From a virus, in IMG/VR virus record IMGVR_UViG_3300020404_000006: a stretch of DNA of 64,000 nt; one strand, 5' to 3'. Position 1 is the first letter of the stretch, and every line of letters begins with the position of its first letter. Below the pieces are notes generated by a model. The model saw nothing but the letters and a program-made list of their open reading frames with translations, was not told the DNA's origin and did not search any database. Position numbers and translations under genes: made by a program. Positions 2,879 through 34,486 of this stretch are shown here, piece after piece.

Positions 2879-2962
2879 AATTGGTCCTTGTTTGTTATGT
2901 TCTTATTGTACATTAAAAAAGGGGTAATGTATGCCCCTTATGTGACAGTTACCAAAGTGGCA

Positions 2963-3196: not shown

Positions 3197-3238
3197 TATA
3201 AAAGAAAAAAGGGAGCAATAGTGCCCCCTATGTGCCAG

Positions 3239-3580: not shown

Positions 3581-3685
3581 GTGTGTTACCTGTGTTTGTT
3601 ATGTTCTTATTATAGTACCGTGAAAGCACAAAACAACAGGCCATGTGCCAGTTCTTAAAGTGGCACACTGATGCTTACAAAGTGG

Positions 3686-3713
3686 TTGACAATTTCCTCT
3701 CATGCCCTATAAT
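3686..3713 (+). promoter_or_regulatory. Rightward sigma70 promoter TTGACA-N16-TATAAT
   Basis: TTGACA 3686-3691 and TATAAT 3708-3713; no ORF downstream. Confidence 0.75.
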
Positions 3714-3867
3714 AGGGTTATAAGAGATTCGGGGTAGGATCTATAAACTATTCGACACTCACCCTGCTCCGCAATAATTGTATCAGAATGTTACGGAATC
3801 CCTATGGCACATTTGACGGGCACAGTCAAGTCCTAGTGTGCCAGTGCATAAAGTGGCACAGTACTCG

Positions 3868-3896
3868 TTGACTTTCTGAGCATTCTGTGTTATAAT
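3868..3896 (+). promoter_or_regulatory. Rightward sigma70 promoter TTGACT-N17-TATAAT
   Basis: Starts 7 nt after the palindrome at 3837-3860; followed by AT-rich non-coding DNA. Confidence 0.8.
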
Positions 3897-4013
3897 GCCC
3901 GCCAAGATGTCTATAAAAACTCACATTAATTGCTTCATTTAACATAAAGAGATAATAAACACTTATATGTTTATTTTACCTTTTTTAAATGTTAATGAAA
4001 AAATCAAAGTGCC

Positions 4014-4223
4014 TTACAATTCATTACTTAATTCATGTACTTTTGTCTTAATTTGTGTTAGTAACTTATAGATATTTCCCTCTGTATTGTTGTTACTTAG
4101 TGAGTCATACTTACTAAGTGATTCTAATACTAATAACTTGATAAGTGCCATTTCATTCTTATCAAATAGTGGGGCATTTAGCATTGTTTCAATGTTATCA
4201 AGGGTCATAGGATTCAATGTCAA
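4014..4223 (-). CDS. Hypothetical protein
   Basis: 69-aa ORF in very AT-rich DNA. Confidence 0.4.
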   Translation of the reverse strand: MTLNPMTLDNIETMLNAPLFDKNEMALIKLLVLESLSKYDSLSNNNTEGNIYKLLTQIKTKVHELSNEL

Positions 4224-4340
4224 TTTCTATAGCATAGTCTGGGTAAATTTGTTCCTCTATATCATCTAAACCTTCAGATAATCTCTTAACGAATGCTTCA
4301 CTTGTTTCCGTAACTTTCTCCTTATGTGTAACTTTCTCCA

Positions 4341-4592
4341 TCAGACTGCCTCCTTATTGCTACACTTAGTAATGGCAATTTGTCCCAGATTTTCTACATA
4401 TAACGACTTAACTCTCTCTCCGTCACTATCATTTAATTCAAGTAACTTATTCCAGTTCCAGTTACTCGGTGGATTACAGTTTGCTTCACTAACTGTAAAG
4501 TCTAAAGTAACACGATAGCGGGTTACTGATTGTGATTGAGAAGTCATAAGATTGAGGCGGTGGATTACATTTAATTCTACCAGATATTGCAC
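4341..4592 (-). CDS. Hypothetical protein (start likely the internal MTSQSQ)
   Basis: ORF track. Confidence 0.5.
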   Translation of the reverse strand: MQYLVELNVIHRLNLMTSQSQSVTRYRVTLDFTVSEANCNPPSNWNWNKLLELNDSDGERVKSLYVENLGQIAITKCSNKEAV

Positions 4593-4867
4593 TAAATGTC
4601 AACTAAGCACGCATATTTCCTCTACTATGATGTTATTTAGTGGGGAAACATGGCAGTGTTATGTAATCTTAACGTGACCACGATTGCGGTTCTTATGTGT
4701 TACTTATAGAAAAAAATTTCGGGCGTTCGCCTCGAAGTGACTTTCATATATGTAATACTAATAAAGACGAATAGCACGATAAAATTGTTAGTTAGTGGTC
4801 TTACTAAGTGATTAACAAACAACTCACTTATGCCACTAAGTAACAATTAAAGACGATTAATTACTCA

Positions 4868-5131
4868 TTAAAATTGTCTGGTGGGAACATACTCTGGGAT
4901 TACATAATCATAATTAGAGGGTTTAATCTTATCACTATGCTTAGTCTTTACACGCTTTAAAGCACGTTCAATACTGGTGTTTATGGCATTGTATTCATTA
5001 CATTCTTCCGTCCAATAGTTTTCTATAATCTCTTTTTCATATTCTACTGATACTAACTCTTGAATCAGTTGTAACTGATAGAATGATAATTTAACTGTTG
5101 TTTGAATGTCACTTAATGCCTCTGTGTTCAT
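4868..5131 (-). CDS. Small early hypothetical protein
   Basis: ORF track; same orientation as the cluster. Confidence 0.55.
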   Translation of the reverse strand: MNTEALSDIQTTVKLSFYQLQLIQELVSVEYEKEIIENYWTEECNEYNAINTSIERALKRVKTKHSDKIKPSNYDYVIPEYVPTRQF

Positions 5132-5556
5132 GAGTGTTTCCTCCTTTTGTTGTTTTTGATGAATTGATTAAACTTTTTACTTTCTTTGGGTGACATACCG
5201 CAAAAATAGTTCAATAGGTTGCCTTCATACTGGTCAGCAAGTTCGATTAACTCTTTTGAGATCATTGAATCATATCCTCAAAACGCTTCATAGCAAGTTT
5301 AATTGCTTCTTCATCAATTTGATCTACTGAAACAGTTTTGTTTTTCATTTTGTAAAACTGTTCGATTTCTTCTAGTGATTCCTCATATAAGGACTCTAGG
5401 ATTGCTTCATTCTGTAAACAAGACATAGTTTTTAATCGTAAATTGGAGCGAATAGTTGATAGTAAAGGTCATTCATAAGACCGAATTCAAATGAAGTGGT
5501 AGCGTGCTCCTCATCAACACCTTCCCAACACTTCATAATTTCTGTGTAAGTATCCA

Positions 5557-5823
5557 TTATAAGCACTCACTAGGTGGTAAACCGATTGAAGCGATAGCAT
5601 TATCAAGTGCGACTCTATCAAGGTCAGGATCATCAAAATCAACACCAGCAGCGTGATCTACGCCCCACTCTGCTACTTCAAAGCAAAAATCGGTAAAGTC
5701 TTTGCATACCCATGCAACATTTTCAAAGTTCTCTACTTCTTTGATTCTGTTGATTAATCGTTCTGTTTTGGTCATAGTTGTTTGTTTGTTTGTTATACAC
5801 TTATTATAGGGCAGTGAGATCAA
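5557..5823 (-). CDS. Small acidic early protein (true start about 5775, MTKTER)
   Basis: Promoter 5803-5861 and CAAA leader lie inside the listed ORF. Confidence 0.6.
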   Translation of the reverse strand: MISLPYNKCITNKQTTMTKTERLINRIKEVENFENVAWVCKDFTDFCFEVAEWGVDHAAGVDFDDPDLDRVALDNAIASIGLPPSECL

Positions 5824-5827
5824 AAAT

Positions 5828-6169
5828 CTACACTGCTTGTGCCACTTTGATTAGTGGCACACTATCGGTTGACTCTACGCCCATTCCGAGGTAGTTTGAA
5901 AATATCATTTTGTTTATAAACTTCTTCCAAGTGTCTGCTACATTAGACTTAATGTAAAATGTTAAAAACTCTTCAATTTCAAAATTAGTCTCATTACTGG
6001 TAACATCAACTAGAAAATCGTTTTTATAAACAACTTCCGCAAATTTGCGCCCATAAGCATAGAGTCCAGTAATTCTAGAGTCTATTGCTTCAATTCTTAA
6101 TCCAGTATTCAATTTCAAATACTTACGTTGATTAAGAGCATCAACTACTTGTTTTTGTTCAGTATTCAT
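5828..6169 (-). CDS. Early hypothetical protein
   Basis: 113 aa; its 3' end is encoded through the palindrome at 5838. Confidence 0.6.
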   Translation of the reverse strand: MNTEQKQVVDALNQRKYLKLNTGLRIEAIDSRITGLYAYGRKFAEVVYKNDFLVDVTSNETNFEIEEFLTFYIKSNVADTWKKFINKMIFSNYLGMGVESTDSVPLIKVAQAV

Positions 6170-6306
6170 GATTTAGTAATTGTGAATTGTGCGGTAAGGT
6201 TTATAGCAGTATTTTGTTTGCTTTTTCTCTTCTAACTCTTCACACTTAGCGATTAAGTCTCTAAGTTTTTTAACGTCCTTATTGAATTGTTCAGTAGTAT
6301 AACTCA

Positions 6307-6537
6307 TTAAACTGCCTCCAAGTCAGATAGGAAGCATTCAACTGTTTGAAATTCATAGTCAGTTATCCAAGTTTTGATAACAGCATAGTCATTACTTCTA
6401 TCAAGAATAACCACTTCGCCCTCTAGTTCATCATGTATTTTTGATTGAACTGTAGTTCCAAGTTTGATCTCTGTAATATCTTGACCAATTCTCAAAACGT
6501 CCTTTTTACATAGTTCTTTGTACTCTTGAATCGTCAT
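6307..6537 (-). CDS. Early hypothetical protein (SH3-like beta pattern)
   Basis: Downstream of the promoter at 6565-6623; GTTVQSK...EGEVV...YAVIK. Confidence 0.65.
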   Translation of the reverse strand: MTIQEYKELCKKDVLRIGQDITEIKLGTTVQSKIHDELEGEVVILDRSNDYAVIKTWITDYEFQTVECFLSDLEAV

Positions 6538-6608
6538 AGTTGTTTGTTTGTTTGTTATACTATCATTATAGGGCAGTGAATACCAATTTCAACCACCACT
6601 GTGCCACT

Positions 6609-6854
6609 TTAACAACTGGCACACTTCCACTTGATTTTCTTCTCATCATTGAGTATATCAAAGCATATCTCGCATAAGCAATCTGCTTCGGGCATGGTAT
6701 CTCGCCAATCATAATCCTCCTCTATAGGATTATCCCAATAGTAATATAAGTCAGGTTGATAATCTATCGAAAATTTCTCTTTTTCGATTTCATGCTCTTC
6801 CATATCCTCTATATGGGAATAATCAAAGTTGCCACATACATCACAATATGACAT
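6609..6854 (-). CDS. Acidic Cys-rich (putative Zn-binding) early protein
   Basis: CDVC, CLCEIC and CASC motifs; D/E-rich. Confidence 0.6.
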   Translation of the reverse strand: MSYCDVCGNFDYSHIEDMEEHEIEKEKFSIDYQPDLYYYWDNPIEEDYDWRDTMPEADCLCEICFDILNDEKKIKWKCASC

Positions 6855-7051
6855 TACTCTGCCTCCTCTAGTATCTCGCCTGTATCTTGTACAGTAAACT
6901 CAATACCCATATCAGGATACCAACAAGTGCTCTCTAATTGACAATTAGTTAGAACATCATTTTTAAGATAGTAAAATGTAATACTATCATTCATATCATA
7001 ATTTGATAGTGTTTCGATTAGTTCTGATACTTTCATTATCTTACGCTCCAT
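6854..7051 (-). CDS. Small early hypothetical protein
   Basis: MKVSELIETLSNYD-type N-terminus. Confidence 0.6.
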   Translation of the reverse strand: MERKIMKVSELIETLSNYDMNDSITFYYLKNDVLTNCQLESTCWYPDMGIEFTVQDTGEILEEAE

Positions 7052-7296
7052 ACTGTCTCAAATGTCTTAGAATTCTCAACACTTGCTGAACCATAATCTT
7101 GCGCCCACTCTAAACAACTTTTCTTCGCTGTTTTTAAATCATTAGTATAGTGCTCATGATAACCAAGTGGGTGGTCACTTACTACGATAGTATAAGCAAA
7201 CTTGTGCCTAGGGTGCTGTGGTTCATTCTTAAGTTGCTCTTGAGCGATTATCTTAAGTTGTTTAAGTTGCTCTTGTAGAATTTCAATAGTTGTCAT
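7036..7296 (-). CDS. Early hypothetical protein
   Basis: Downstream of the promoter at 7319-7377. Confidence 0.65.
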   Translation of the reverse strand: MTTIEILQEQLKQLKIIAQEQLKNEPQHPRHKFAYTIVVSDHPLGYHEHYTNDLKTAKKSCLEWAQDYGSASVENSKTFETVWSVR

Positions 7297-7334
7297 AATG
7301 TTTGTTTGTTATATTACTATTATAGTGGATAAAT

Positions 7335-7607
7335 CTAGAATCCAGTTCTAGATTGTGCCACTTCTTCGATTGTCCTACTAGACATAAACTGAGCAGGTCT
7401 TTTAGTATTAACAGTAACAGCGTAGTTATTTTCTAGTAAAATGTCGATCTCCTCCGCCATGTCATACACGTTGATTGCGGTTTTCTCTGCTGTTTTACCT
7501 TTAAATGTGACTACCTTAAGTCTAGCGTTCTTACTAACATTATTGCGCCAGTCCTTTACTTCAAAGTAATCAACAACTGTATTGAGTGATTCAGATTGAA
7601 ATTGCAT
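7335..7607 (-). CDS. Early hypothetical protein
   Basis: Downstream of the promoter at 7635-7693. Confidence 0.65.
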   Translation of the reverse strand: MQFQSESLNTVVDYFEVKDWRNNVSKNARLKVVTFKGKTAEKTAINVYDMAEEIDILLENNYAVTVNTKRPAQFMSSRTIEEVAQSRTGF

Positions 7608-7709
7608 AATTGTTTGTTTGTTTGTTATACTATCATTATAGTAGCATGAAATACAATAACAACATATAGTGTGCCACTAATCAAACTGGCACACTATTGG
7701 TTGACTCTC

Positions 7710-7952
7710 CTACCATTCTGGTGTAGGTTGCTTTGCCTTGTTCTTTGCTACTTTCTCTTGCTCTTTGAATGTGAGAGCATCTACTCTATCTTTAATTGAT
7801 TTAATCTCTTTAACTTCATGATATTCGCTAGTGCGGTAGTAATCTACCATACTACCGTAATAGTCATCAAGAGCGCAATTAATGATACTTAGTTCAGTTA
7901 AACTAACATCTAATTTAATACTATTCATGAATCCAGTTTCCCTCGCCATCAT
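7710..7952 (-). CDS. Early hypothetical protein
   Basis: ORF track. Confidence 0.55.
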   Translation of the reverse strand: MMARETGFMNSIKLDVSLTELSIINCALDDYYGSMVDYYRTSEYHEVKEIKSIKDRVDALTFKEQEKVAKNKAKQPTPEW

Positions 7953-8193
7953 AATCTCCTTCAGTAATTGATTCTAGTCCGTAAGGGTCAGGGTCATTAA
8001 CAACTGATTGTAAACCTTTATACTCACGCCCTTGTAAACGATAAACTTCTTTTTGTTGTCTCAAGTCTCTATCAATTCTATATGATAGTTCACAATTAAG
8101 TGCCATGTATTGACGTTTATCATCACTATGCTCTGCATAATGGAATTGTAAACACTCTAACAAGTACTCAAGTTCTCTAATTGCAAATTTCAT
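7921..8193 (-). CDS. Early hypothetical protein
   Basis: ORF track. Confidence 0.55.
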   Translation of the reverse strand: MKFAIRELEYLLECLQFHYAEHSDDKRQYMALNCELSYRIDRDLRQQKEVYRLQGREYKGLQSVVNDPDPYGLESITEGDYDGEGNWIHE

Positions 8194-8435
8194 GATAATG
8201 CCTCCTCTAATAGATCACTCATGCAAGTAAGGTCAACAACATCACTAATACCTAGTGAAGTGTCATTATCAATAGCGAAGTCTAAAGCACTCTTTAGATC
8301 AGATACTCTACCACTATCAAAAGTAAGAGTGATTGAGTTAGTATTTGGATTTCTGTAGTAAATCATGTTTGTTTGTTTGTTATAATACTATTATAGAGCA
8401 GTCATACACGATAACAACCACCATTGTGACAGTAA

Positions 8436-8621
8436 TCAAACTGTCACATCATAGGTTGATTTGTTCTTTAGAATATGCCAATACTCATCATAAGTAAGAG
8501 TTTCTTCTTGCTCTGTATCCATATTGAGTACAATATCAAAAGGGTAAAAAGCATAATACTTAACGTGGTCATCTACATACTCTTTGATTTGTTGATACTT
8601 AGTCATCATTAGTGCCCTCAA
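8436..8621 (-). CDS. Early hypothetical protein
   Basis: Stop codon lies inside the palindrome at 8425. Confidence 0.55.
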   Translation of the reverse strand: MRALMMTKYQQIKEYVDDHVKYYAFYPFDIVLNMDTEQEETLTYDEYWHILKNKSTYDVTV

Positions 8622-8749
8622 TAAAAACGCCTCTATTGGTTAATATGTCCTCTATTTTGAATAAAATAGGTGCAATTTTTGTACTATCCATTTCTTCATA
8701 ATCACTTATATAATCATCAAGTGACTTATGAATAGTTTTTAATTCATCA

Positions 8750-9004
8750 TTACTGAACATTCTCTATAACCTCCGCTATAGTATCTGTAAAGTATTCATC
8801 AAAATACTCTTCAATTTCTACCATAGCATCATTAAATGTTTGGTCATCTATCCATCTTTGCATATCGTCAGTAACGTAGATTATCAAGTCCTTCATTGAC
8901 ATATTATCAACAATTCGCTCAACATAGTATTCCTTAAGAGCAGCAAACTGTTTGTCAGTCATGTTTTGTGCCTTGAGTAAGGTATCTTTGTTTGTTTTGT
9001 TCAT
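8750..9004 (-). CDS. Early hypothetical protein
   Basis: ORF track; coupled stop/start. Confidence 0.6.
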   Translation of the reverse strand: MNKTNKDTLLKAQNMTDKQFAALKEYYVERIVDNMSMKDLIIYVTDDMQRWIDDQTFNDAMVEIEEYFDEYFTDTIAEVIENVQ

Positions 9005-9198
9005 TAGTTGCCTCCGATAAGTTGATATGGTTCTGGAAATTCGTCCACTTTAAGTTGAGCGAATGAGTGAATCATAGTCCACACTTTTTGTCCAGATAGT
9101 TGTTTTTCATCACAAATGTGACTAGCGGTATCCTCTAATACTTCCAATACTTCAAAAGCATCAAGTTTCAACTGTTCTAATTCTTCAAATGTCATCAC
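9004..9198 (-). CDS. Early hypothetical protein
   Basis: ORF track; coupled stop/start. Confidence 0.6.
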   Translation of the reverse strand: MMTFEELEQLKLDAFEVLEVLEDTASHICDEKQLSGQKVWTMIHSFAQLKVDEFPEPYQLIGGN

Positions 9199-9428
9199 TT
9201 AGTCCTCGCAAATAGTTTTGAAATTCTATCGTCTATCTCATTACAACGCTCATAAACTGATCTACCCTCGATCAATTCATCTTCTTGTAAAGAGTCATCA
9301 TCATAGCAACGATAGTCCTCTAGTGAGTTAGCGATTGTATCCCACTCTCCATCAGTAAAAAATGAGCGGATTGTTTGTAGTTGGTCGAAACTGTAGTCTC
9401 TGACCAAAGAACCTTGACGATTCATCAT
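9195..9428 (-). CDS. Early hypothetical protein
   Basis: Downstream of the promoter at 9459-9517. Confidence 0.65.
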   Translation of the reverse strand: MMNRQGSLVRDYSFDQLQTIRSFFTDGEWDTIANSLEDYRCYDDDSLQEDELIEGRSVYERCNEIDDRISKLFARTK

Positions 9429-9506
9429 AGTTAAAACCTCTGTGTTTGTTATATTACTATTATAGGGCAGTGACTCAAAGAATCAACTGCCCTTGTGCCA
9501 GTTTGT

Positions 9507-9809
9507 TTACTGGTCTAGTACCCAAAGACTTCCACCATCAAAGTCTTTAGAGTATCCATAATTTCTTACGAGCATATCTCTGACTCTCTCTCTATCAAGT
9601 GAGTCGCCATCGCCCCAAGTGAATATGTCACTATCTAAATCAGATATTAGTTGTAGATAGTCCTCTGTAGCAAGTGTAATGTCATCTTTAGTGACATTCA
9701 TTTGATATAGTGCATCATCAGCACCGTAGAATGAAAAAACGTAATCAGTAAACTCATCAATTTGATTGATGTCATACTTGTTTTTTCCGATAGCAACGAT
9801 AGAAGTCAT
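9507..9809 (-). CDS. Acidic early hypothetical protein
   Basis: Downstream of the promoter at 9835-9893; stop codon in the next palindrome. Confidence 0.65.
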   Translation of the reverse strand: MTSIVAIGKNKYDINQIDEFTDYVFSFYGADDALYQMNVTKDDITLATEDYLQLISDLDSDIFTWGDGDSLDRERVRDMLVRNYGYSKDFDGGSLWVLDQ

Positions 9810-9881
9810 AAACCTGTTTGTTTGTTATACTATCATTATAGGGCAGTGATATTGAATATCAACCGCCCTTGTGCCACTTAT

Positions 9882-10073
9882 TCAACTGTCACTAGGTACT
9901 AGCATTTGTGGGATTCCATCATCAATATCTGCTAAACGTCCTAGTTTATGACGAATTTTCCTAAAATTGACATTAAAATCGTCATTCAATTTGTCAGTAA
10001 CCCTACAAGGCGTACCTAAGATAAGTTGTAGCAGAGCGTCACACTCTGCAGCAGTCAAGTTTGGGTCAGTCAT
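9882..10073 (-). CDS. Early hypothetical protein
   Basis: Stop codon inside the palindrome at 9870. Confidence 0.55.
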   Translation of the reverse strand: MTDPNLTAAECDALLQLILGTPCRVTDKLNDDFNVNFRKIRHKLGRLADIDDGIPQMLVPSDS

Positions 10074-10242
10074 TAGTCTTTAGGATACAAGTTTGTAATA
10101 ATGTCAGCAAGTTGATTCAACTGATCTTCATTCATTAGTTCGATCATAGCATCAACTATATCATAGGGAGCGGAATTGTCCGCCTCCTCTAAGATTTCTG
10201 CTATCTCTGAAAATAGAGTAGTCTTTAAGTCATTTGGATATA

Positions 10243-10722
10243 TCATGCTGACATTAACTCCTGTGGATAGTCAGCAGGGATTTCTTCCTTGATAGGTGTG
10301 AAAGTATCGTTGAAATCCTTAGTTTTCTCATTCCAAAAACTAATACCATAGCATACCAAAGTTCCGTCTAGTTCTTTGATGTAAGCATACTCTCCACAAC
10401 ACTTGTTAGTGTCCTCAAAGAAGTGTGAAGTAGTTTTGTGATGTTTAGGAGCATTGTCATCAATAGACTCTCCTCTATCTGTGTAGTAACAAGGTTTGAA
10501 CTCTCTGCCCTCTAGTTCCTCTGGTTCAGTAAGTTCCCAACCTGATTGAGTATGGCAACAACTCATGTCTCCACCATCAATAAGTTCAGCGATTGCTTCC
10601 CTAGTAGGAAAATGTTTGTTGAGAGTAACTCCCAACCACTGTGGATAACCGTCCCAATGATGATATGCGGATAGGATTGAACCATCAGCAAGTCTAAGTC
10701 CGATTCTTGAATTTGTTGACAT
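10243..10722 (-). CDS. Conserved-type phage hypothetical protein (YHHWDGYP motif)
   Basis: MSTNSRIG...SAYHHWDGYPQWLG motif, familiar from phage proteins; promoter at 10751-10809. Confidence 0.7.
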   Translation of the reverse strand: MSTNSRIGLRLADGSILSAYHHWDGYPQWLGVTLNKHFPTREAIAELIDGGDMSCCHTQSGWELTEPEELEGREFKPCYYTDRGESIDDNAPKHHKTTSHFFEDTNKCCGEYAYIKELDGTLVCYGISFWNEKTKDFNDTFTPIKEEIPADYPQELMSA

Positions 10723-10804
10723 GATTTGTTGTTTGTTTTGTTATGTACTTATTATAGTATGGTAGGAATGGAAATCTACCACCTGTGTGCCACTAATCCA
10801 AGTG

Positions 10805-11062
10805 TCACAAGTTTGCTGGGTCGGAAGGCATTACCTGTGGTAAGATCATCAGTTGTAACCTATCAACAACAGCGGGAACAAGTTTGCTACCATCAAAGGA
10901 GCAACTTCCGTCATCATTCTTGTTACCTAACTTCTCACAAATTGCATCACTAACTAACTCATATAGAGCGTTATGTGCCTTTGGATTGTTGTTAATATGT
11001 TCGATAACTTCCAATACCAAAGCATCAGCAAGTTTGTTTAATGTGTCCTTAGATAGTGTCAT
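10805..11062 (-). CDS. Early hypothetical protein
   Basis: ORF track. Confidence 0.55.
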   Translation of the reverse strand: MTLSKDTLNKLADALVLEVIEHINNNPKAHNALYELVSDAICEKLGNKNDDGSCSFDGSKLVPAVVDRLQLMILPQVMPSDPANL

Positions 11063-11204
11063 TTAATCCTCTTATCTTGATTTAAAGGGGAATTGAAATA
11101 GTCACGATTAACAACATAAAGTGTTACCATGGCGGTAAGAATACCAAAGAATCCGATAATCAAAATAGGACTCTTAGGGAAGTCGTAGAAAGGAATTTCA
11201 GTCA

Positions 11205-11432
11205 TTAGTTGTCGTATAGTGGGTAGTAAACTTCTGTGTCAACTGCGTGCTTCATAGTCTCATACATTGAAAACTCTGGGTCAGATAAGTCTTTGCAAGT
11301 TGATAAAATACTGATAACCTCTTCCATAAGGTTGACTATCATTTTTTCTTTTGGTGTGGTTTTTAGTTTTGATGCCATAATGTTTGTTTGTATAGTATTA
11401 TAATACAGGCAGTAGTATTTAAGTGCAACCAC
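11205..11432 (-). CDS. Early hypothetical protein (true start about 11378)
   Basis: Promoter at 11400-11459 overlaps the listed 5' end. Confidence 0.55.
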   Translation of the reverse strand: MVALKYYCLYYNTIQTNIMASKLKTTPKEKMIVNLMEEVISILSTCKDLSDPEFSMYETMKHAVDTEVYYPLYDN

Positions 11433-11444
11433 CTGTGTGCCAGT

Positions 11445-11798
11445 TTACAAATAGGTTATCTCTCCCTTTTCAACTGCCTCCTCTAGTTCATAATAGTTTG
11501 CTCTCTCTGCATCTATCTCTTCTTGATGATATTCAAATACCATATTCTGATAGATGTCGAACAAGTCCTGTAATACTACGCCTTCGAGGTCACTCCATGA
11601 ACCAACATAGTCTAACTGTGTCTCATCATATCCACCCTTCTCAAAACTAGGAGCGGATACAAAATTCATTCCAATGTCAATAAAGAAATGTCTGCCATAC
11701 TTCTCACTCACATGAGTTTTTGTTGGTATGAAATGGCAACCATGTTTGCCCTCTGGATCTCTCAAATCGTTGAAATCTCTATAAATGTATGTTCGCAT
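11445..11798 (-). CDS. Early hypothetical protein
   Basis: 117 aa; stop codon in the palindrome at 11436. Confidence 0.6.
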   Translation of the reverse strand: MRTYIYRDFNDLRDPEGKHGCHFIPTKTHVSEKYGRHFFIDIGMNFVSAPSFEKGGYDETQLDYVGSWSDLEGVVLQDLFDIYQNMVFEYHQEEIDAERANYYELEEAVEKGEITYL

Positions 11799-11964
11799 TA
11801 CAATTCCTCCACGTTTTCAATATTCCACTCTGACACATATTCATCTTCTACTTCAAATGAATTGATGTCAGCATGAGCAAGTTCTCTTGCCTGTTCCTCT
11901 GTGTCTGCTTCAACTAAGATAGTGAAGTAATTGACTTCAGAGCATTCTATTCTAAACTGATTCA

Positions 11965-12147
11965 TTATATACCTCCATCAACTGCTATCATTTTACGATA
12001 GATGTCATGAGAGATATAATCTCTTATATCATTTGAGAGATCAGGGTCATACTTTGTTTCTACTCTCTCTTTGAGTGAGAAGTAAGTCGGTTCAAATATC
12101 TCAAAGAGTCTATTGAACTCGGTGTCTGTTAGGATTAATGTTTTCAT
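11965..12147 (-). CDS. Early hypothetical protein
   Basis: ORF track. Confidence 0.55.
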   Translation of the reverse strand: MKTLILTDTEFNRLFEIFEPTYFSLKERVETKYDPDLSNDIRDYISHDIYRKMIAVDGGI

Positions 12148-12347
12148 TGTTCAAGTTTTAGACGTAAGAGTGAATCAACAACCGATTCCATAGTTGCTTT
12201 AGAAAAACCAACTGCATAGGGATAATCTTTTGTGTAATCATCACTATTCTGTTCTGAAGCACCATAACATACTTCGATTGATTCATTGAGTGACTTAATG
12301 ATTTGGTCAACAATGTAGGTTGGAATTTCAAGTCTTGAATACGGCAT
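12144..12347 (-). CDS. Early hypothetical protein
   Basis: GGAG SD upstream; lies downstream of the structured RNA. Confidence 0.6.
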   Translation of the reverse strand: MPYSRLEIPTYIVDQIIKSLNESIEVCYGASEQNSDDYTKDYPYAVGFSKATMESVVDSLLRLKLEQ

Positions 12348-12366
12348 TGATCTCCATGTATTTGAG

Positions 12367-12449
12367 AGGGGGCAACTCAGATTGGCAGTTTGAGATTAAA
12401 TCCTTCGAGTCAAAAGAACCGCTTCTTTTAACGGATCGCCTTGCCCCCT
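12367..12449 (-). ncRNA. Candidate structured RNA or leader (~83 nt)
   Basis: Begins just after the TATAAT at 12458-12463; 9-bp terminal stem AGGGGGCAA/TTGCCCCCT with internal hairpins; no ORF. Confidence 0.55.
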
Positions 12450-12500
12450 ATGTTTCTATTATAGTATGATGAAATAGTATTTCATGCACCTATGTGCCAC

Positions 12501-13448
12501 TTATTCAACTGGCACACCCCATGTCTTTTTCATATTGAAGTTTGCATAACTGAAGCGTTGACGTTTGATAAGTTTGTATGTACCATACTTGTTAGTCATC
12601 ACATAACCCTCATGCTCATAGGGTTGACCATCAATAAGGCACTCAACATCTTTTGATGTAACGATACCTTGCATCAATAGTTCTTTAACTTCAATAATCA
12701 TATTGTATAAGTGGAACAAGTTTTTTGAGTATCCTGTATCACTTGCAAGTTGATCGGGGTTAAGTTTCTTGCCTTCCCTCACATAACTGTTGACAATTAC
12801 CTTTAGTGCTTTTCCTTCCTTGAGCGTGGGGAACTCGGTAAAACGTACCAACGTGCGGGCGAGAGTGAGCAAGAATTCAATCTTGACACTTAAGCGGTTA
12901 TTCATAGTAGCATGAGTATCAACTTGATAGTGTCCTAAGTTGCGACAGTCAAGATTCCTATAATTATTGGGTCGATAATGGAATACTGCATCTAATTCTT
13001 GAATAGTTGCACCAATATACTGTGTATGAGTCGCTACAACTACTGACTGTTTGATGACCTTATCAAATTTGTATGTGATAGTATTAGGTTTGTAGGTATC
13101 ATTACCACCATAACCAATAAAGTCACATTGATACACTCCATGATCTGTGGGTAGAGTCTCAAGGCAAGTGTGTAGAATACTTGCTACATTTGGGATATGA
13201 CCATGATTAGTTTCAATATCTGTATGAGTATAGTTTATCTTGATCTTCTTCTTATTGAATACTGATTTAGTGCCAACAAAGAATCTACCATTCTCAGGGT
13301 TGACTCCATACACGATAGCAGGGGCACCATCATACTTGACTGATATTTGATTTCTCTTGCTCTTCAAAAACTTGATTACATCAATAGCACCACTCTTACC
13401 AAGAGTCAGGATACTATCTTCTGGGTGCTCTAGGTGTTTGTTCTTCAT
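12501..13448 (-). CDS. Nucleotidyltransferase/ligase-fold protein (Rnl2/DUF6267-like)
   Basis: SVKYDGAP (KxDG motif I), HEGYV (motif IV-like), YKLIKR (motif V-like); start reassigned to MKNKH at 13448. Confidence 0.65.
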   Translation of the reverse strand: MKNKHLEHPEDSILTLGKSGAIDVIKFLKSKRNQISVKYDGAPAIVYGVNPENGRFFVGTKSVFNKKKIKINYTHTDIETNHGHIPNVASILHTCLETLPTDHGVYQCDFIGYGGNDTYKPNTITYKFDKVIKQSVVVATHTQYIGATIQELDAVFHYRPNNYRNLDCRNLGHYQVDTHATMNNRLSVKIEFLLTLARTLVRFTEFPTLKEGKALKVIVNSYVREGKKLNPDQLASDTGYSKNLFHLYNMIIEVKELLMQGIVTSKDVECLIDGQPYEHEGYVMTNKYGTYKLIKRQRFSYANFNMKKTWGVPVE

Positions 13449-13509
13449 ACTACCATTATACACCATGGCAACAGGAAATCAACCACCTGTGTGCCAGTTT
13501 ATAAAGTGG

Positions 13510-13666
13510 GTGAGAGAGAAACGTGGGACTACTGTAATGGGTTTCACCCAAGAGTCCAAATTTACACTATGGGAATCGCTTACACCTGAACCCCTACTGA
13601 GTACTGACCTAGCAATGCTGGCGCTCCATGTTCGGGCATAGTAACCACATGAGTTATCTCTCTCAC
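13510..13666 (-). ncRNA. Candidate structured ncRNA (~157 nt), possibly manA-class cyanophage RNA
   Basis: Predicted start right after the -10 TATTAT at 13673-13678; terminal stem GTGAGAGAGATAAC/GTTTCTCTCTCAC; nested stems; no ORF longer than about 19 codons. Confidence 0.65.
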
Positions 13667-13719
13667 ATTTATATAATACTACATTGATGTAGGTTTACAA
13701 CCACCTGTGTGCCAGTTTA

Positions 13720-13911
13720 TTAAATGTCACACTCAGGGTTGAGAAATTGCCTATTTCGCTTTACTTTAGTAGTTGAAATATCAATTAAATCTTCTAACTC
13801 TTCTATAGAATTGGATAGGTTGTCATCATCTTTCTCCTCAGAATAGAAAAATAATGCTTCACTTAACAAGTTAAATTGCTTGTCAGTTAGTGTTACATTG
13901 ATCTGATACAT
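13720..13911 (-). CDS. Early hypothetical protein
   Basis: ORF track; stop codon in the palindrome at 13708. Confidence 0.6.
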   Translation of the reverse strand: MYQINVTLTDKQFNLLSEALFFYSEEKDDDNLSNSIEELEDLIDISTTKVKRNRQFLNPECDI

Positions 13912-13912
13912 C

Positions 13913-14482
13913 TTACCTCATAGGTATGTTAAACGACATTATTGTCCTCTGTTTATTTGATTTAGATACTGGCGATTCATGTAACAAAACAGAAGGAAAA
14001 GTTAGAATCTCGCCTTCATTTACTGGAGGCGCAATCTTATCTATTGTACCATAATAGGGGTTAGGGTGTGGACTATAGAATGTAGTAGGAAAATGCTCCT
14101 GTGGGTCAAACTCAACATACAATACACATGATATATTCATTAAACCATGATTATGAGCACCATGAAATTGTCCTATGGCATATCTCTGTGACCATAGTTG
14201 CCACTCCTCAACATTTTTGAAAGGGCAATCTCCTCCATATCTATCACTCAATATCTGTGTGTATTCATTGACTAACTTATCTAAATCAGTTTGCAATATG
14301 TCAACAAACTCATTAAGATATGGTGCTGTAGTCTGATACTTATAGTAGTCAGTCTGACATTCTATGATCTCATTATCAGTAAAATCTATTAGTTTTAAGA
14401 GTCTAGATTTCTTATCACTCCAATCGTCTATCACAAATTTAGTGATATTAAATCCAAATAGATTTAGAGACTGAGCATTCAT
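13913..14482 (-). CDS. Putative 2OG-Fe(II) oxygenase (TIGR02466-like)
   Basis: HGAHNHG ... ILTFPSVLLHES ... RTIMSFNI. Confidence 0.75.
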   Translation of the reverse strand: MNAQSLNLFGFNITKFVIDDWSDKKSRLLKLIDFTDNEIIECQTDYYKYQTTAPYLNEFVDILQTDLDKLVNEYTQILSDRYGGDCPFKNVEEWQLWSQRYAIGQFHGAHNHGLMNISCVLYVEFDPQEHFPTTFYSPHPNPYYGTIDKIAPPVNEGEILTFPSVLLHESPVSKSNKQRTIMSFNIPMR

Positions 14483-14623
14483 TTATGTTTGTAGTTTTTT
14501 CTGGATTTACGCCTTGGTCTTATACCTTTATCTCTTTTCAACTCCGCCTTAAGTTTCTTTAGAAATTTTAAGTGGTCAGGATACACTAATTTCATAAGGT
14601 CTTTTTTAGTTTGTCGAGACTCT

Positions 14624-14878
14624 CTAGAAATCTCTATCCACCTCAACATCATTTATATCTTGGAATGTGATATTGGCGATGTCTGAGTCAGTCCAATCTG
14701 TGATGTCATCAAGGAATAAATCTGCATCATCAAAATCATCTGCCTCGATCATCATTTCCTGTACTAATGCTTCAGCGTCCTCAAGTCGCACCTTGTCCAC
14801 CAGTTTGCTCATCTGTGTGGCGAACTGCTCTTCCATGACTGAAAGGCATTGTGCTCGGATTTTGTCAATTTGTGCCAT
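14624..14878 (-). CDS. Highly acidic small protein
   Basis: 84 aa with a D/E-rich C-terminal half. Confidence 0.55.
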   Translation of the reverse strand: MAQIDKIRAQCLSVMEEQFATQMSKLVDKVRLEDAEALVQEMMIEADDFDDADLFLDDITDWTDSDIANITFQDINDVEVDRDF

Positions 14879-14931
14879 TGGTTTTAGTTACCATGTAGTT
14901 TGATTATACTATAATTTTAGAATATTTGCAA

Positions 14932-16149
14932 CTACCTTGTCGCCCTTGATACCTGTGACTCTCCCTTAGTAAAGATAGTGTCAACAACTGACTGAAGGCG
15001 GCGTTCTGTACCAATACCCACATTACTGTAAACTGGTACAAACATCTTGCCAAATGGTTTTACATAACCATTTCCATTGATGTTAGGTTTGAGAGCACCT
15101 GTGCTAATCTTAAGTGCATCTTCCTTATGTAGTCGAATGACTCGACCAATAGTTTGTGCCATAGTGATTAGATCAAGATTCCTCAGTAGAATACAAGCAG
15201 TCAATCCACTCACATTCATACCCTCTGAGAGAATAGAATGATGAAACATGACAAACTTCTTGTCAGGGTCAGCACCCCACTTGTTCATCAAATTGAAGAA
15301 TGTCTTACGAGTGACCTTCTTACCATTGATGATAGCACCATACTTTGATGTAATCCACATTACATTGTATTTCATAGAGTGACATACTGCCATGAAATCA
15401 GTTTGAGTAATCAACTTGTGAATGTTCTTACTAGACTTAGCAGTGACCAATACTTTGTCCATGTGATCTTCATTTTCAAGAGCATCAAGAATCATACACC
15501 TGTCAATCTGCTCAACTGATTCATAGAACCCGATAGGATACTTGACTGACTTGACTTGAGGCGGTACGATATACCCCTTCTTAATCAACTCTGGAGCAGG
15601 GATCTCTGCAATTACCTTGCCATATACCTTCTCATTGTTCATACCTCTCTCTTGTGATGTATGATGTTTAGGTGTGGCAGTGAAGTAAAACTTACGTCTA
15701 GTAATGTTAGAGCGGTTCTTGACACTCTCAAAGAAGTTTCTTTGAACTGAATTGTGTGCCTCATCATAATATACTGTATCCGCTTCAACATCTTCCATGA
15801 TTCTGTGAAGTGAATGGTATGTAGTAAAGATCAACTGATTCTTTGTACTGTTATGATGCCACTCTTGAATCTCTTTAGGATTAGTTGTAGTCTGGTAGTT
15901 AGTCTCTCCACTATGAACATGAAGCACCTCGACATTATCAATCTGCTCTAGGAACTCCTCACACAACTGTTGAGCAAGTAAGATTCTAGGAGCAACAACA
16001 ATAATAGTCTGTGGAATAGGCATACTGAATCGCCACTTAGCATCAACAATCATACACATAGTCTTACCACCGCCAGTAGGTACAAGTACCTGACCACACT
16101 GGCGTTGCATGATATTTGTAATCTCTTTTTGATGATCTCTAAGTTGCAT
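14932..16149 (-). CDS. Superfamily 2 DEAD/DExH-like helicase (ResIII-like)
   Basis: PTGGGKT Walker A, YYDEAH motif II, TATP motif III, LSEGMNV motif V, AQTIGRVIR motif VI; ATG start at 16149. Confidence 0.88.
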   Translation of the reverse strand: MQLRDHQKEITNIMQRQCGQVLVPTGGGKTMCMIVDAKWRFSMPIPQTIIVVAPRILLAQQLCEEFLEQIDNVEVLHVHSGETNYQTTTNPKEIQEWHHNSTKNQLIFTTYHSLHRIMEDVEADTVYYDEAHNSVQRNFFESVKNRSNITRRKFYFTATPKHHTSQERGMNNEKVYGKVIAEIPAPELIKKGYIVPPQVKSVKYPIGFYESVEQIDRCMILDALENEDHMDKVLVTAKSSKNIHKLITQTDFMAVCHSMKYNVMWITSKYGAIINGKKVTRKTFFNLMNKWGADPDKKFVMFHHSILSEGMNVSGLTACILLRNLDLITMAQTIGRVIRLHKEDALKISTGALKPNINGNGYVKPFGKMFVPVYSNVGIGTERRLQSVVDTIFTKGESQVSRATR

Positions 16150-16181
16150 AGTCAGTTGTCTCAATAATCATAGTATAGGAT

Positions 16182-16207
16182 AAAAAAAGACCCCTGCAAG
16201 GGGTCTT
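16182..16207 (-). terminator. Intrinsic terminator lying within the helicase promoter spacer
   Basis: AAGACCCCT-GCA-AGGGGTCTT hairpin followed by a T-run on the minus strand. Confidence 0.75.
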
Positions 16208-16412
16208 GTGCCAGTCTTAGAACTGTGCCAATAGTTTTTGAGTCTCAGGGTCAAACTCCTCTTTAACTCCGTTAATGTCCATCAACCAATCATCTTGCTC
16301 TAGTCCTTCAAATTCATCAATCTGTTCAAAATCAAAATCGTCCATAGTGTTCCGTTTGTTTACTCTCATATAATAGTGTAATTTCAATAATGTGCAACCA
16401 CCTGTGTGTCAG

Positions 16413-16712
16413 TTATCCAACTGGAGGGGCGCCTGGTGCTTCAGCGGGCATTGCCTCCATATCAAATCTACTAGATGCTTTCTCTAGTTCCACCTTGCCC
16501 TTGAGAGCATTAACCTCTGCAATAAGAGTCTTAATGTCATCTTGCTGTTTGTATAGGGCAGCATTAACCATTGACTCTAGTGAAGTCAATCTCTCGTCAA
16601 GGTTGCCAATGGTTCGCATTGCTGCCTGTAGTTGTTTCTTAAGTCTATCAACTTGTTGCAACTTAGTCTTAGTAAGTGCTTCTGTATCTGATGTTAGTGA
16701 ATCGTATCCCAT
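16413..16712 (-). CDS. Coiled-coil hypothetical protein
   Basis: Heptad pattern; CTAAATAA late-like box upstream. Confidence 0.65.
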   Translation of the reverse strand: MGYDSLTSDTEALTKTKLQQVDRLKKQLQAAMRTIGNLDERLTSLESMVNAALYKQQDDIKTLIAEVNALKGKVELEKASSRFDMEAMPAEAPGAPPVG

Positions 16713-16752
16713 GATTTATGTTACTCTTGGATTATTTAGATAGGTGTGGGTA

Positions 16753-17178
16753 TTACCTGATATACAGATAACCACCCGCCCAGTCACAGTTTGCTAGCAT
16801 CCACTCACGTTGATTAATGTCTCTCATATCAAATCTAACGTGTTTAGCAGGTGCTTTCCATGAAGCAGGTTTGTAAACCTCTCCTGTCATTTTATCAACA
16901 AAAGCATGAACCCCTGCACTCTCATATTTGCCATTACGATAGTCATTCTGAATGATCTTATGATACTTCTTACCTGATGTGATAGTAAACTTCATGCACT
17001 CTTCATCATTCTCAAGTTTGTTGATCCTCTCCTGTAGATATGGATTCATTTCTGTTGAGTTATTCCTGATGCAAGAGCGAACTGCATAGTTCTTGTACTG
17101 TTGCTCAAGGGCACGACAAAGTGTTTCAGTCCATTGAAGCACTTCAACTTTTGTGAGTGATTTTTCGAGTGTTGACAT
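16753..17178 (-). CDS. Conserved-type phage hypothetical protein (HAFVDK..GEVYKPASWKAPAK)
   Basis: Motif familiar from phage proteins; start reassigned to MSTLEK after the CAAA-type leader. Confidence 0.7.
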   Translation of the reverse strand: MSTLEKSLTKVEVLQWTETLCRALEQQYKNYAVRSCIRNNSTEMNPYLQERINKLENDEECMKFTITSGKKYHKIIQNDYRNGKYESAGVHAFVDKMTGEVYKPASWKAPAKHVRFDMRDINQREWMLANCDWAGGYLYIR

Positions 17179-17298
17179 AATTCTGTTTGTATTGTTGTTT
17201 GTTAAAGAGAAAAGGGAAGGAAGGTAACAAACACAAAACCTTCCCTCCACATTCATATATTACTGCATTGTGGCGGTAATGCAACCACCTGTGTGCCA

Positions 17299-17502
17299 CT
17301 ACCTCAACTGTCCACTCCTAGTCAATCTGTGAATGTAGTAACCAATAAGAGCACCAATACCCATTTTTAACAAAGCACTGAAAGAATTATCAATCTGTCT
17401 GAAATTAATGTCTGCGCCTGTGCCATACTCACTATTCCTCAAATGATAGTGTGCGGTGTGTTTGGTTCTCATGGCAATAATATAATTGGGTGCGAGAAAC
17501 AA
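17299..17502 (-). CDS. Small membrane-anchored hypothetical protein
   Basis: C-terminal hydrophobic stretch; stop codon in the palindrome at 17292. Confidence 0.5.
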   Translation of the reverse strand: MFLAPNYIIAMRTKHTAHYHLRNSEYGTGADINFRQIDNSFSALLKMGIGALIGYYIHRLTRSGQLR

Positions 17503-34155: not shown

Positions 34156-34173
34156 GAGTGTTTTAATTTATAT

Positions 34174-34478: not shown

Positions 34479-34486
34479 CATCAGGA

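What the first reader, a model, noticed from the sequence alone, without database searches (positions are those of the whole stretch)
13510..13666. ORF-less 157-nt multi-stem RNA with its own operator-linked promoter
The predicted TSS coincides with the first base of a 13-bp closing stem (GTGAGAGAGATAAC/GTTTCTCTCTCAC). Inside are ACTATG/CATAGT, CCCGAAC/GTTCAGG, AGCA-T-TGCT and GGACT/AGTCC enclosing TGGG-TGAAA-CCCA, plus a possible GGAGCG/CGATTCC pseudoknot. It is more GC-rich than its flanks and bracketed by two operators (13490, 13708), so it looks like a stand-alone RNA cassette. It may belong to a cyanophage-associated Rfam class such as manA or wcaG, or be new. Its 3' neighbour encodes a ligase-fold protein.
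Basis: partly seen in the sequence, partly recalled or inferred. Interest (0 to 1): 0.75.

Follow-up and report, generated by a model that had tools for sequence, protein, structure and literature searches.

The report
Uncatalogued structured RNA of ocean cyanophages
The 157-base gene-free stretch encodes a real folded RNA made early in infection by a T4-like virus of marine cyanobacteria. It belongs to a large, strongly conserved RNA family that is absent from Rfam and from every paper I could search, and its function is unknown.

Summary
The RNA is real and lies on the minus strand (13666 to 13510). A sigma-70-type promoter places its start at the first base of the closing stem. No Rfam family matches, so it is not manA or wcaG. 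The invariant 21-base core occurs in at least 119 IMG/VR viral contigs, in Prochlorococcus phages P-SSM2 and P-SSM5, and in none of 185,579 prokaryote genomes.

A covariance model built from 26 compact relatives finds the window copy at 89.6 bits. Across 96 distinct sequences, 94.9% of modelled pairs hold and 23 of 34 pairs show compensatory changes. G-U pairs outnumber A-C about 10 to 1, which fixes the strand.

The fold is a three-way junction (P1/P2, P3, P5) with invariant unpaired segments. One arm, P4, is either a short hairpin or carries any of a dozen unrelated inserts on an AGUA/GAA (loop-E-like) base.

The closest cultured relative, S-SSM7, has a different RNA module in the same slot.

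I could not establish the function. My best guess is a stable early RNA whose invariant core binds a conserved partner. A cis-acting leader role is nearly as likely.

This scan has met the same family before on other genomes (e1-5725395, e1-5362454).

The parts
13708..13731 (.). Upstream palindrome of the repeated early cassette (stem-loop or operator, PeSL-like)
   Evidence: Member of a 13-copy repeat family in the window (D5). It overlaps the stop of ORF 13720-13911.
13673..13700 (-). Sigma-70-type promoter TTGTAA-16 nt-TATTAT. The predicted +1 is about 13666.
   Evidence: In at least 25 distinct homologous loci a -10 box sits exactly 7 nt before the first P1 base.
13510..13666 (-). The structured RNA (157 nt)
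   Evidence: Model R1 scores 89.6 bits, E 2.8e-22. Covariation is shown. G-U outnumbers A-C 229 to 24.
13653..13666 (-). P1 5' strand. It pairs with 13510-13522.
   Evidence: All 8 family P1 pairs (helices 1 and 2 of the count) show double changes.
13510..13522 (-). P1 3' strand. Its last bases overwrite the left arm of the next palindrome.
13646..13648 (-). P2 5' strand (GUG). It pairs with 13523-13525 (CAC).
   Evidence: The family alternates GUGG/CCAC with ACGG/CCGU.
13637..13642 (-). P3 5' strand. It pairs with 13566-13571.
   Evidence: All six pairs covary (helix 4).
13631..13636 (-). P4 base, 5' side: CCC plus GAA
   Evidence: CCC-GAA ... AGUA-GGGG frames every long P4 insert in the family.
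13599..13630 (-). P4 cargo insert, specific to this copy
   Evidence: At least 12 unrelated inserts of 25-90 nt occupy this position in relatives. A strict pattern for this insert found no other copy in the loci held.
13591..13598 (-). P4 base, 3' side: AGUA plus GGGG
13572..13591 (-). Invariant 20-nt core GUUCAGGUGUAAGCGAUUCC, which includes a small conserved hairpin
   Evidence: Exact in at least 119 viral contigs. A search anchored elsewhere turned up only five kinds of single-base variant.
13558..13565 (-). Junction strand J3/5 (GUAAAUUU)
   Evidence: The TAAATTTGG stretch is invariant in alignment A2.
13526..13557 (-). P5 hairpin with an asymmetric internal loop and the apical GG-UGAAA-CC (loop at 13542-13546)
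   Evidence: Stem pairs covary and the loop is invariant.
13455..13482 (-). Next promoter, TTGATT-16 nt-TATAAT. It serves the probably leaderless ligase-like gene at 12501-13448.
   Evidence: The ligase fold is shown.

Best explanation
SHOWN. The stretch is a non-coding, independently folding RNA on the minus strand. It belongs to a large family confined, as far as I could search, to T4-like marine cyanophages. The fold is a three-way junction:
- P1/P2 joins the two ends of the RNA.
- P3 carries the variable arm P4 and a 20-nt invariant segment.
- P5 ends in an invariant UGAAA loop.
A host-type (sigma-70) early promoter is placed so that transcription starts at the first base of P1.

INFERRED. 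The RNA acts as RNA. Its invariant junction core, J3/5 and P5 loop form one surface recognised by a conserved macromolecular partner, either a host or a phage protein or machine. P4 points away from that surface and tolerates, or displays, interchangeable cargo hairpins mounted on a rigid AGUA/GAA loop-E-like motif.

The mechanism I commit to is a stable, trans-acting early RNA (a decoy, sponge or cofactor). Its 5' end is made by initiation, and its 3' end by processing of a read-through transcript. This would be analogous to the small stable RNAs of the T4 tRNA cluster.

Odds: about 0.9 that it is a functional structured RNA of this family, and about 0.4 for the trans-acting partner-binding mode.
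For: Family and structure:
- No Rfam or tRNA match.
- At least 119 viral contigs carry the exact core, and no prokaryote genome does.
- The covariance model gives 100 hits in the loci.
- 94.9% of cells are paired against 83.5% in shuffles and 33-57% with slid partners. 23 of 34 pairs show double changes.
- G-U outnumbers A-C 229 to 24.
- Insert and hairpin lengths differ by non-multiples of three, so no reading frame is conserved.

Start site:
- A -10 box lies exactly 7 nt before P1 in at least 25 distinct loci, and likewise in the window.

Independence from gene context:
- No flanking protein family occurs in more than about 35% of loci.
- There is one copy per genome in P-SSM2 and in a complete 202-kb genome.
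- Stems vary while the unpaired core stays nearly fixed.

Presence in RNA libraries (weak):
- Contigs from four marine metatranscriptome studies cover the conserved core. One reaches depth 173 against about 5 for the flanks. These contigs come from relatives, and DNA carry-over is not excluded.
Against: - No partner is known.
- No terminator or processing site is visible after the RNA.
- About 40% of family copies lie within 70 nt of an ORF start, and most others are followed by further RNA modules and then an ORF. That pattern fits a cis-acting leader equally well.
- The depth contrast in metatranscriptomes is expected from DNA or RNA alike, because many phages share the core but not the flanks.
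- The extreme sequence identity of the core could partly reflect recent horizontal spread.
Confidence: 0.42

Rival explanations
1. Cis-acting portable leader. The nascent RNA folds at the 5' end of an early transcript and alters that transcript's fate. It might modify the host RNA polymerase so that it reads through downstream stem-loops, as HK022 put RNA or the Bacillus EAR element do. Or it might shield the mRNA from 5'-end-dependent RNases. In the window it would serve the long transcript form of the ligase-like gene.
For: - P1 begins at +1 of a host-type promoter in at least 25 loci.
- The element is always co-directional with downstream ORFs.
- 45 of 113 copies are followed by an ORF start within 70 nt, and 43 by other modules.
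- No terminator follows it in the window.
- The surrounding region is full of promoter plus stem-loop cassettes, and such stem-loops terminate transcription in T4-type PeSLs (PMC2839356).
Against: - There is only one copy per genome, although the early region holds a dozen or more promoters.
- Downstream genes are diverse and mostly small and unknown.
- In the window the next gene has its own promoter.
- Some copies lie behind an ORF or behind other modules rather than at a 5' end.
- The palindromes lack U-tracts, and none is called a terminator in the 13300-13950 stretch scanned.
Confidence: 0.3
2. Ligand-sensing aptamer (riboswitch-like). The invariant junction would form a small-molecule pocket that controls downstream expression.
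For: - A compact three-way junction with invariant unpaired nucleotides and a closing P1 is typical of aptamers.
- Other cyanophage leader motifs (glnA, manA, wcaG) are thought to be regulatory (PMC2864571).
Against: - No expression platform is present. There is no terminator and no alternative pairing with a ribosome-binding site.
- Downstream genes share no pathway.
- The element is often separated from the ORF by other modules.
Confidence: 0.08
3. Selfish or neutral cassette. The promoter-plus-RNA unit spreads by recombination between conserved cassette sequences, and its conservation reflects recent spread rather than a service to the phage.
For: - S-SSM7 is 93% identical in the flanks but carries a different module between the same promoter and the same outer stem. 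The 3' motif of that module recurs in three other loci.
- Modules are nested inside one another.
- PeSL-mediated shuffling is documented (PMC2839356, PMC4122927).
Against: - Stems have diverged with compensatory changes while the loops stay fixed. That is purifying selection on a fold, not recent copying.
- The RNA strand is specified by G-U pairs.
Confidence: 0.08
4. Self-cleaving or processing ribozyme that cuts module arrays into separate RNAs.
For: - The RNA has an invariant core within a junction.
- The family often sits in chains of RNA modules that would need processing.
Against: - There is no match to any ribozyme family in Rfam, even at E up to 10.
- In many loci, and in the window, it is solitary with its 5' end at +1, so nothing needs cutting.
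Confidence: 0.05
5. Not an RNA gene: a short protein-coding ORF, or a DNA-level site such as an operator or origin.
For: Stop-free stretches of 40-50 codons occur in some frame in most copies. The window has antisense ORFs of 51 and 94 codons.
Against: - The open frame and strand differ between copies.
- P4 and P5 lengths vary by non-multiples of 3.
- Substitutions are compensatory in stems.
- The G-U over A-C asymmetry excludes a strand-neutral DNA cruciform.
Confidence: 0.02

Closest known systems
manA (RF01745), wcaG (RF01761), glnA (RF01739) and PhotoRC-II RNA motifs of T4-like cyanophages (Weinberg et al. 2010, PMC2864571)
   Same: They are structured, ORF-less RNA motifs found in intergenic regions of marine cyanomyoviruses and their metagenomes. 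They were defined by covariation, and their function is unknown or only partly known.
   Different: There is no sequence or structure match. Those motifs sit before specific gene classes, whereas this one is independent of gene context, begins at +1 of its own promoter and has a cargo-bearing arm.
T4 small stable RNAs rnaC and rnaD (species 1 and 2) of the tRNA cluster
   Same: They are 119-139-nt phage-encoded stable RNAs with no assigned function in the T4 record or to my knowledge. They are made as part of multi-RNA transcripts in a T4-type genome. An earlier scan note (e1-5725384) reports a family member in one operon with tRNA-Thr.
   Different: Model R1 does not match them with filters off. 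Nothing better than 4.7 bits overlaps them. rnaC carries a tRNA-like T-arm, which this RNA lacks.
PeSL cassettes (promoter-early stem-loop) of T4-type phages (Arbiol et al. 2010, PMC2839356; Comeau et al. 2014, PMC4122927)
   Same: The RNA is delivered by, and bracketed by, a repeated palindrome plus sigma-70 promoter cassette. The S-SSM7 comparison shows a cassette-type swap at this slot.
   Different: PeSLs flank protein ORFans, whereas here the cargo is an RNA. The palindromes here lack U-tracts, and none was called a terminator in the stretch scanned. The PeSL paper I searched for cyanophage terms (PMC4122927) does not mention them.
HK022 putL/putR RNA and the Bacillus EAR element (cis-acting processive antiterminator RNAs; cited from my own knowledge, not tested here)
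   Same: They are promoter-proximal structured RNAs in early phage transcripts that act regardless of the downstream gene.
   Different: There is no sequence or structural similarity, and any effect on RNA polymerase is untested.

Membership tests
This uncatalogued cyanophage RNA family (model R1) | Match to a covariance model built only from other members | tested here: met
   89.6 bits, E 2.8e-22, full model length. The window sequence was not in the seed alignment A2.
This uncatalogued cyanophage RNA family (model R1) | Invariant 20-nt core, J3/5 and GG-UGAAA-CC loop in the right order between covarying P3 and P5 | tested here: met
This uncatalogued cyanophage RNA family (model R1) | -10 box 7 nt before P1 | tested here: met
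   The window's TATTAT box ends at 13673 and P1 starts at 13666. At least 25 loci show the same spacing.
manA (RF01745) / wcaG (RF01761) | Score at or above the Rfam gathering threshold | tested here: not met
   There is no match at the gathering score or at E up to 10, either in the window (13300-13900) or in a compact relative.
tRNA / tmRNA | Cloverleaf or tRNA-like domain detectable by ARAGORN | tested here: not met
   The only ARAGORN hit in the window is the tmRNA at 34146-34498.
T4 rnaC / rnaD | Homology detectable with the family model | tested here: not met
   no match on the annotated RNAs, with filters off.
Riboswitch | Aptamer followed by an expression platform (a terminator, or sequestration of the ribosome-binding site) | tested here: not met
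   No terminator-like site was found. What follows varies: ORFs, other modules or a promoter.
Riboswitch | Ligand binding | not testable with these tools
   This needs in-line probing or ITC.
PeSL cassette | Repeated stem-loop next to a sigma-70-like early promoter, flanking variable cargo | tested here: met
   13 palindrome copies, with promoters at fixed spacing. The cargo differs from S-SSM7.
PeSL cassette | The stem-loop acts as a transcription terminator | tested here: inconclusive
   No U-tract terminator was called. The copy after the RNA has lost its left arm. Function needs an assay.
Loop E / sarcin-ricin motif (at the base of P4) | AGUA opposite GAA between two helices | tested here: met
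   The sequence signature is present in the window and in all long-insert members. The three-dimensional form cannot be tested here.
ATP-dependent RNA/DNA ligase fold (neighbouring gene 12501-13448, DUF6267) | Nucleotidyltransferase fold with motif I, KxDG | tested here: met
   KYDG is invariant in 24 sequences. The model has pLDDT 78.8. Z is 8.9 (rmsd 3.6 A, 184 residues) to Naegleria RNA ligase, and all of the 50 entries listed are ligases. Foldseek E-values were weak, 0.1 or higher. Activity is untested.

The most novel reading that the evidence does not exclude
The family is a new functional RNA class: a natural scaffold whose invariant three-way-junction core engages a central host machine (RNA polymerase, ribosome or an RNase), while its P4 arm displays interchangeable cargo hairpins. 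Ocean cyanophages would then assemble, nest and swap RNA modules much as they swap ORFan genes. The invariant core could alternatively prove to be a new ribozyme or a processive antiterminator.
Probability: 0.25. Interest if true: 0.85.

Novelty: new variant of a known kind. Interest (0 to 1): 0.62.

Why it matters
T4-like cyanophages infect Prochlorococcus and Synechococcus, the most abundant phototrophs in the ocean. This is a structured RNA that they make early in infection. Its unpaired core is almost invariant across well over a hundred divergent viral contigs, yet it appears in no RNA catalogue and in no paper I could find.

Conservation of that kind usually marks a ribozyme, an aptamer or a binding site for a central cellular machine. 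P-SSM2 carries a compact copy and is a cultured, tractable system, so the question is directly testable.

The cargo-bearing arm, the nesting of modules inside one another, and the swap against a different RNA in S-SSM7 together show that cassette shuffling in T4-type genomes moves RNA genes as well as protein ORFans.

Tried and rejected
- **Rfam 15.** I scanned the whole window at the gathering score, 13300-13900 at E up to 10, 16 homologous loci (111 kb), and a compact relative. The only hit was the window's tmRNA.
- **ARAGORN.** No tRNA was found next to any copy in 28 loci.
- **Tertiary pairing of UUCA in the core with UGAA in the P5 loop.** A search anchored on J3/5 and the P5 loop found many copies with UACA or UGCA and an unchanged loop. 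The one C-to-U variant says nothing either way. I rejected this pairing.
Neither is conserved.
- **Homology to T4 rnaC and rnaD.** None was found.
- **Prokaryote genomes.** No exact core was found in 185,579 species genomes. This does not exclude divergent copies.
- **Conserved protein neighbour.** None was found.
- **Papers.** No paper holds the core sequence, and cyanophage ncRNA papers list only CfrI, PhotoRC-II, wcaG, manA, glnA and abiF.
- **Metatranscriptome contigs.** They cover only the conserved core, and parts of the flanks at low depth. Uncovered parts say nothing, and DNA carry-over cannot be excluded.
- **Resemblances recalled from memory only.** These were the core to a tRNA T-arm with an insertion, CCCGAAC and GUGAAAC to 5S rRNA, and a cargo hairpin loop (ACUUAGAAG) to the 23S GTPase-centre loop. 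The Rfam rRNA and tRNA models gave no hit. I treat these as leads, not findings.
- **The window's own assembly is not held**, so I could not count copies in the whole genome. The 64-kb window has one copy.

Full report
**What is there**

Genes in this part of the window run on the minus strand. They belong to a T4-like cyanomyovirus from a marine metagenome. Its nearest cultured relative is Synechococcus phage S-SSM7, which is 93% identical in the flanks.

Read on the minus strand, 13666..13510 is a 157-nt stretch with no meaningful ORF. It lies between a 63-codon ORF and a DUF6267 gene.

A sigma-70-type promoter (TTGTAA, 16 nt, TATTAT) ends at 13673. That places +1 at about 13666, the first base of a closing stem of 10 bp plus 3 bp. 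A second promoter at 13482..13455 serves the DUF6267 gene, and no terminator-like site lies in between.

The stretch is richer in G+C than its flanks, 0.45-0.47 against 0.31-0.38. The single-sequence fold is only modestly better than shuffles (-49.1 kcal/mol, z -2.05). The case for an RNA therefore rests on comparison with relatives.

**Not a known family**

Rfam 15 finds only the window's tmRNA at gathering thresholds. It finds nothing at E up to 10 in 13300-13900, nothing in a compact relative, and nothing in 111 kb of 16 homologous loci. ARAGORN finds no tRNA here.

The papers that list cyanophage non-coding RNAs name CfrI, PhotoRC-II, wcaG, manA, glnA and abiF only. No paper in the library contains the core sequence.

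**A large family**

BLAST against cultured phages showed a conserved 57-nt core in P-SSM2, P-SSM5 and four single-cell 'marine virus' records.

It occurs in none of 185,579 prokaryote species genomes.

I built a covariance model from 26 compact members, without the window sequence. It finds the window copy over its full length at 89.6 bits, E 2.8e-22. It gives 100 hits in the fetched loci.

There is one copy each in P-SSM2 and in a complete 202-kb viral genome, and one in this window.

**Structure and covariation**

RNAalifold on the seed alignment predicts 36 pairs, 18 of them with compensatory changes. On 96 distinct sequences:
- 94.9% of cells pair, against 83.5% in column shuffles and 33-57% when partners are slid.
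- 23 of 34 pairs show changes on both sides.
- No shuffle out of 500 reaches any observed measure.

G-U and U-G pairs outnumber A-C and C-A by 229 to 24. The folded molecule is therefore the RNA of this strand, not a DNA cruciform. The alignment was fitted to the model, which favours the structure, but the seed alignment made by MAFFT shows the same covariation.

The architecture is a three-way junction, with window coordinates given in the parts list:
- P1 plus P2 join the two ends of the RNA.
- A short GUU linker follows.
- P3 has six pairs, all covarying. It encloses the variable arm P4 and a 20-nt invariant segment that can form a small hairpin.
- An invariant junction strand (GUAAAUUU) leads to P5.
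- P5 is a covarying hairpin with an asymmetric internal loop and an invariant GG-UGAAA-CC tip.

A search anchored on J3/5 and the P5 tip, and so unbiased for the core, found only single-base core variants: UUCA to UACA, UGCA or UUUA; GG to GA; and GUGUAAG to GUGCAAG. Those variants disprove the UUCA:UGAA tertiary pairing I had considered.

**The variable arm**

P4 takes one of three forms:
- a CCCC/GGGG hairpin with a 9-nt loop;
- CCC-GAA-[insert]-AGUA-GGGG, with at least a dozen unrelated inserts of 25-90 nt;
- a form of about 95 nt with a different base.

AGUA opposite GAA is the sequence signature of the loop E / sarcin-ricin motif. That assignment rests on established knowledge of RNA motifs, and the three-dimensional form is untested.

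The window copy has the second form, with a 32-nt insert of its own that a strict pattern did not find in the other loci. Some inserts also occur as free-standing modules next to the element.

Lengths of P4 and P5 differ by non-multiples of three. Stop-free frames are not consistent between copies. A coding reading is therefore excluded.

CCCGAAC does not pair with GUUCAGG. The proposed GGAGCG/CGAUUCC pseudoknot uses the variable insert and is not conserved.

**Context**

In at least 25 distinct loci a -10 box lies exactly 7 nt before the first P1 base, usually behind a palindrome of the same type as in the window. In other loci the element follows another RNA module or the end of an ORF.

Flanking ORFs are almost all co-directional, but no protein family is present in more than about 35% of loci. 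Those seen include an N6-adenine methylase, a helicase, DUF7717 and small unknown ORFs.

Downstream of 113 distinct copies:
- 45 have an ORF start within 70 nt;
- 43 have another recognisable RNA module;
- few are followed by a palindrome-type site like the one in the window.

The window carries none of the other modules.

S-SSM7 keeps the same promoter, the same outer stem and the same downstream cassette. Inside, it carries a different insert of about 60 nt, whose 3' motif recurs in three other viral loci. This is a cassette-type replacement of one RNA by another. [quoted passage not shown]

**Expression**

Contigs from four marine metatranscriptome studies cover the conserved core. One reaches depth 173 against about 5 for the flanks. 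The contigs come from relatives, as their loose ends differ. Depth sums over many phages that share the core, and DNA in RNA libraries is not excluded. This is a weak hint only.

**The neighbouring gene**

The DUF6267 protein has an invariant KYDG motif. Its model has pLDDT 78.8. Foldseek E-values were weak, 0.1 or higher, though the top rows were nearly all ligases. VIA-align gave Z 8.9 (rmsd 3.6 A, 184 residues) to Naegleria RNA ligase and Z 7.2-7.5 to T4 Rnl1, T4 Rnl2 and fungal Trl1. Every one of the 50 entries listed is an ATP-dependent ligase. The 'ligase fold' claim holds.

Only about 10 of 123 family copies have this gene within 3 kb. A functional link between the ligase and the RNA is therefore not supported.

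**How it most likely works**

Shown:
- It is a non-coding RNA with a selected fold.
- It starts at +1 of a host-type promoter.
- It has an almost invariant unpaired core.
- One arm is tolerant of insertions.
- It occurs independently of gene context.
- It is usually present once per genome.

Inferred: the invariant core, J3/5 and P5 tip form one recognition surface for a conserved macromolecular partner, and P4 points away from it.

I commit, at about 0.4, to a stable trans-acting early RNA released from a read-through transcript. It would be comparable in kind to the T4 small stable RNAs rnaC and rnaD, to which it is not homologous.

A cis-acting leader role, in antitermination or stabilisation, is nearly as likely at about 0.3. 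The reasons are that many copies directly precede ORFs and that no terminator follows the element. Riboswitch, ribozyme, selfish-cassette and non-RNA readings are less likely, for the reasons given under the rival explanations.

**Novelty**

The family is in neither Rfam 15 nor any paper I could search. Earlier reports of this scan met the same family on other genomes and reached the same view: real, modular and of unknown function. Those are AI notes, not independent proof. Everything stated above I tested here myself.

Noticed in passing
window 34146-34498 (-): The phage carries a circularly permuted (two-piece) cyanobacterial-type tmRNA. Rfam cyano_tmRNA scores 111 bits, and ARAGORN reads the tag peptide as ANNIDTAANNIVAFSRVLTREFARTDELVTA.
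   Followed up: no
window 2652-17315: At least 13 copies of an 8-bp-arm palindrome (TGTGCCAS-N8-STGGCACA) occur here. Each lies next to a sigma-70-type promoter on the minus strand. This is a PeSL-like cassette system across the early region.
   Followed up: partly
L001 (S-SSM7) 1610-1700, against window 13510-13666: S-SSM7 is 93% identical in the flanks and keeps the same promoter and outer stem. Inside, it carries an unrelated insert of about 60 nt. The 3' motif of that insert recurs next to family members in L017, L046 and L099. A 34-codon ORF is annotated over it (SSSM7_050) and is probably spurious.
   Followed up: partly
L005 6940-7000, L013, L023, L026 and about 20 other loci: About a quarter of family copies are directly followed by a second conserved module. 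It is an H-type pseudoknot of about 50 nt with two covarying stems and an invariant loop (GAGGCGAUAGGAAAC). It has no Rfam match.
   Followed up: partly
L002 (P-SSM2) 1390-1690; L004, L012, L017, L045, L047, L053: These loci hold chains of several other recurrent RNA modules. Some are nested inside hairpin loops of others, including inside P4 of this family. None matches Rfam in 111 kb scanned.
   Followed up: partly
L004, L047, L053, L038 (downstream of the element): These are tRNA-like pieces that ARAGORN does not call. Each has an acceptor-like stem plus a canonical T-arm (GGUUCAAUUCC) with large or odd inserts. They resemble the T-arm end of T4 rnaC.
   Followed up: no
window 12501-13448 (-): The DUF6267 / phrog_455 protein has an RNA/DNA-ligase nucleotidyltransferase fold (invariant KYDG; Z 8.9 to Naegleria RNA ligase). 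Its -10 box (13455-13460) puts the transcript start at about the ATG, so the mRNA is probably leaderless.
   Followed up: partly
window 12367-12449 (-): A second ORF-less closed-stem RNA of about 83 nt begins directly after the next cassette's TATAAT box. I did not examine it further.
   Followed up: no
L017 1210-1338 and 2119-2259: One 25-kb viral contig carries two copies of the family about 900 nt apart, one compact and one with a long P4 insert.
   Followed up: no
L022, L025, L059, L076, L078, L079, L091 (P4 insert): The largest P4 cargo contains a hairpin with a covarying 5-bp stem and a fixed 9-nt loop, ACUUAGAAG. From memory, that loop shares 7 nt with the 23S rRNA GTPase-centre (1067) loop. 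I did not test this.
   Followed up: no
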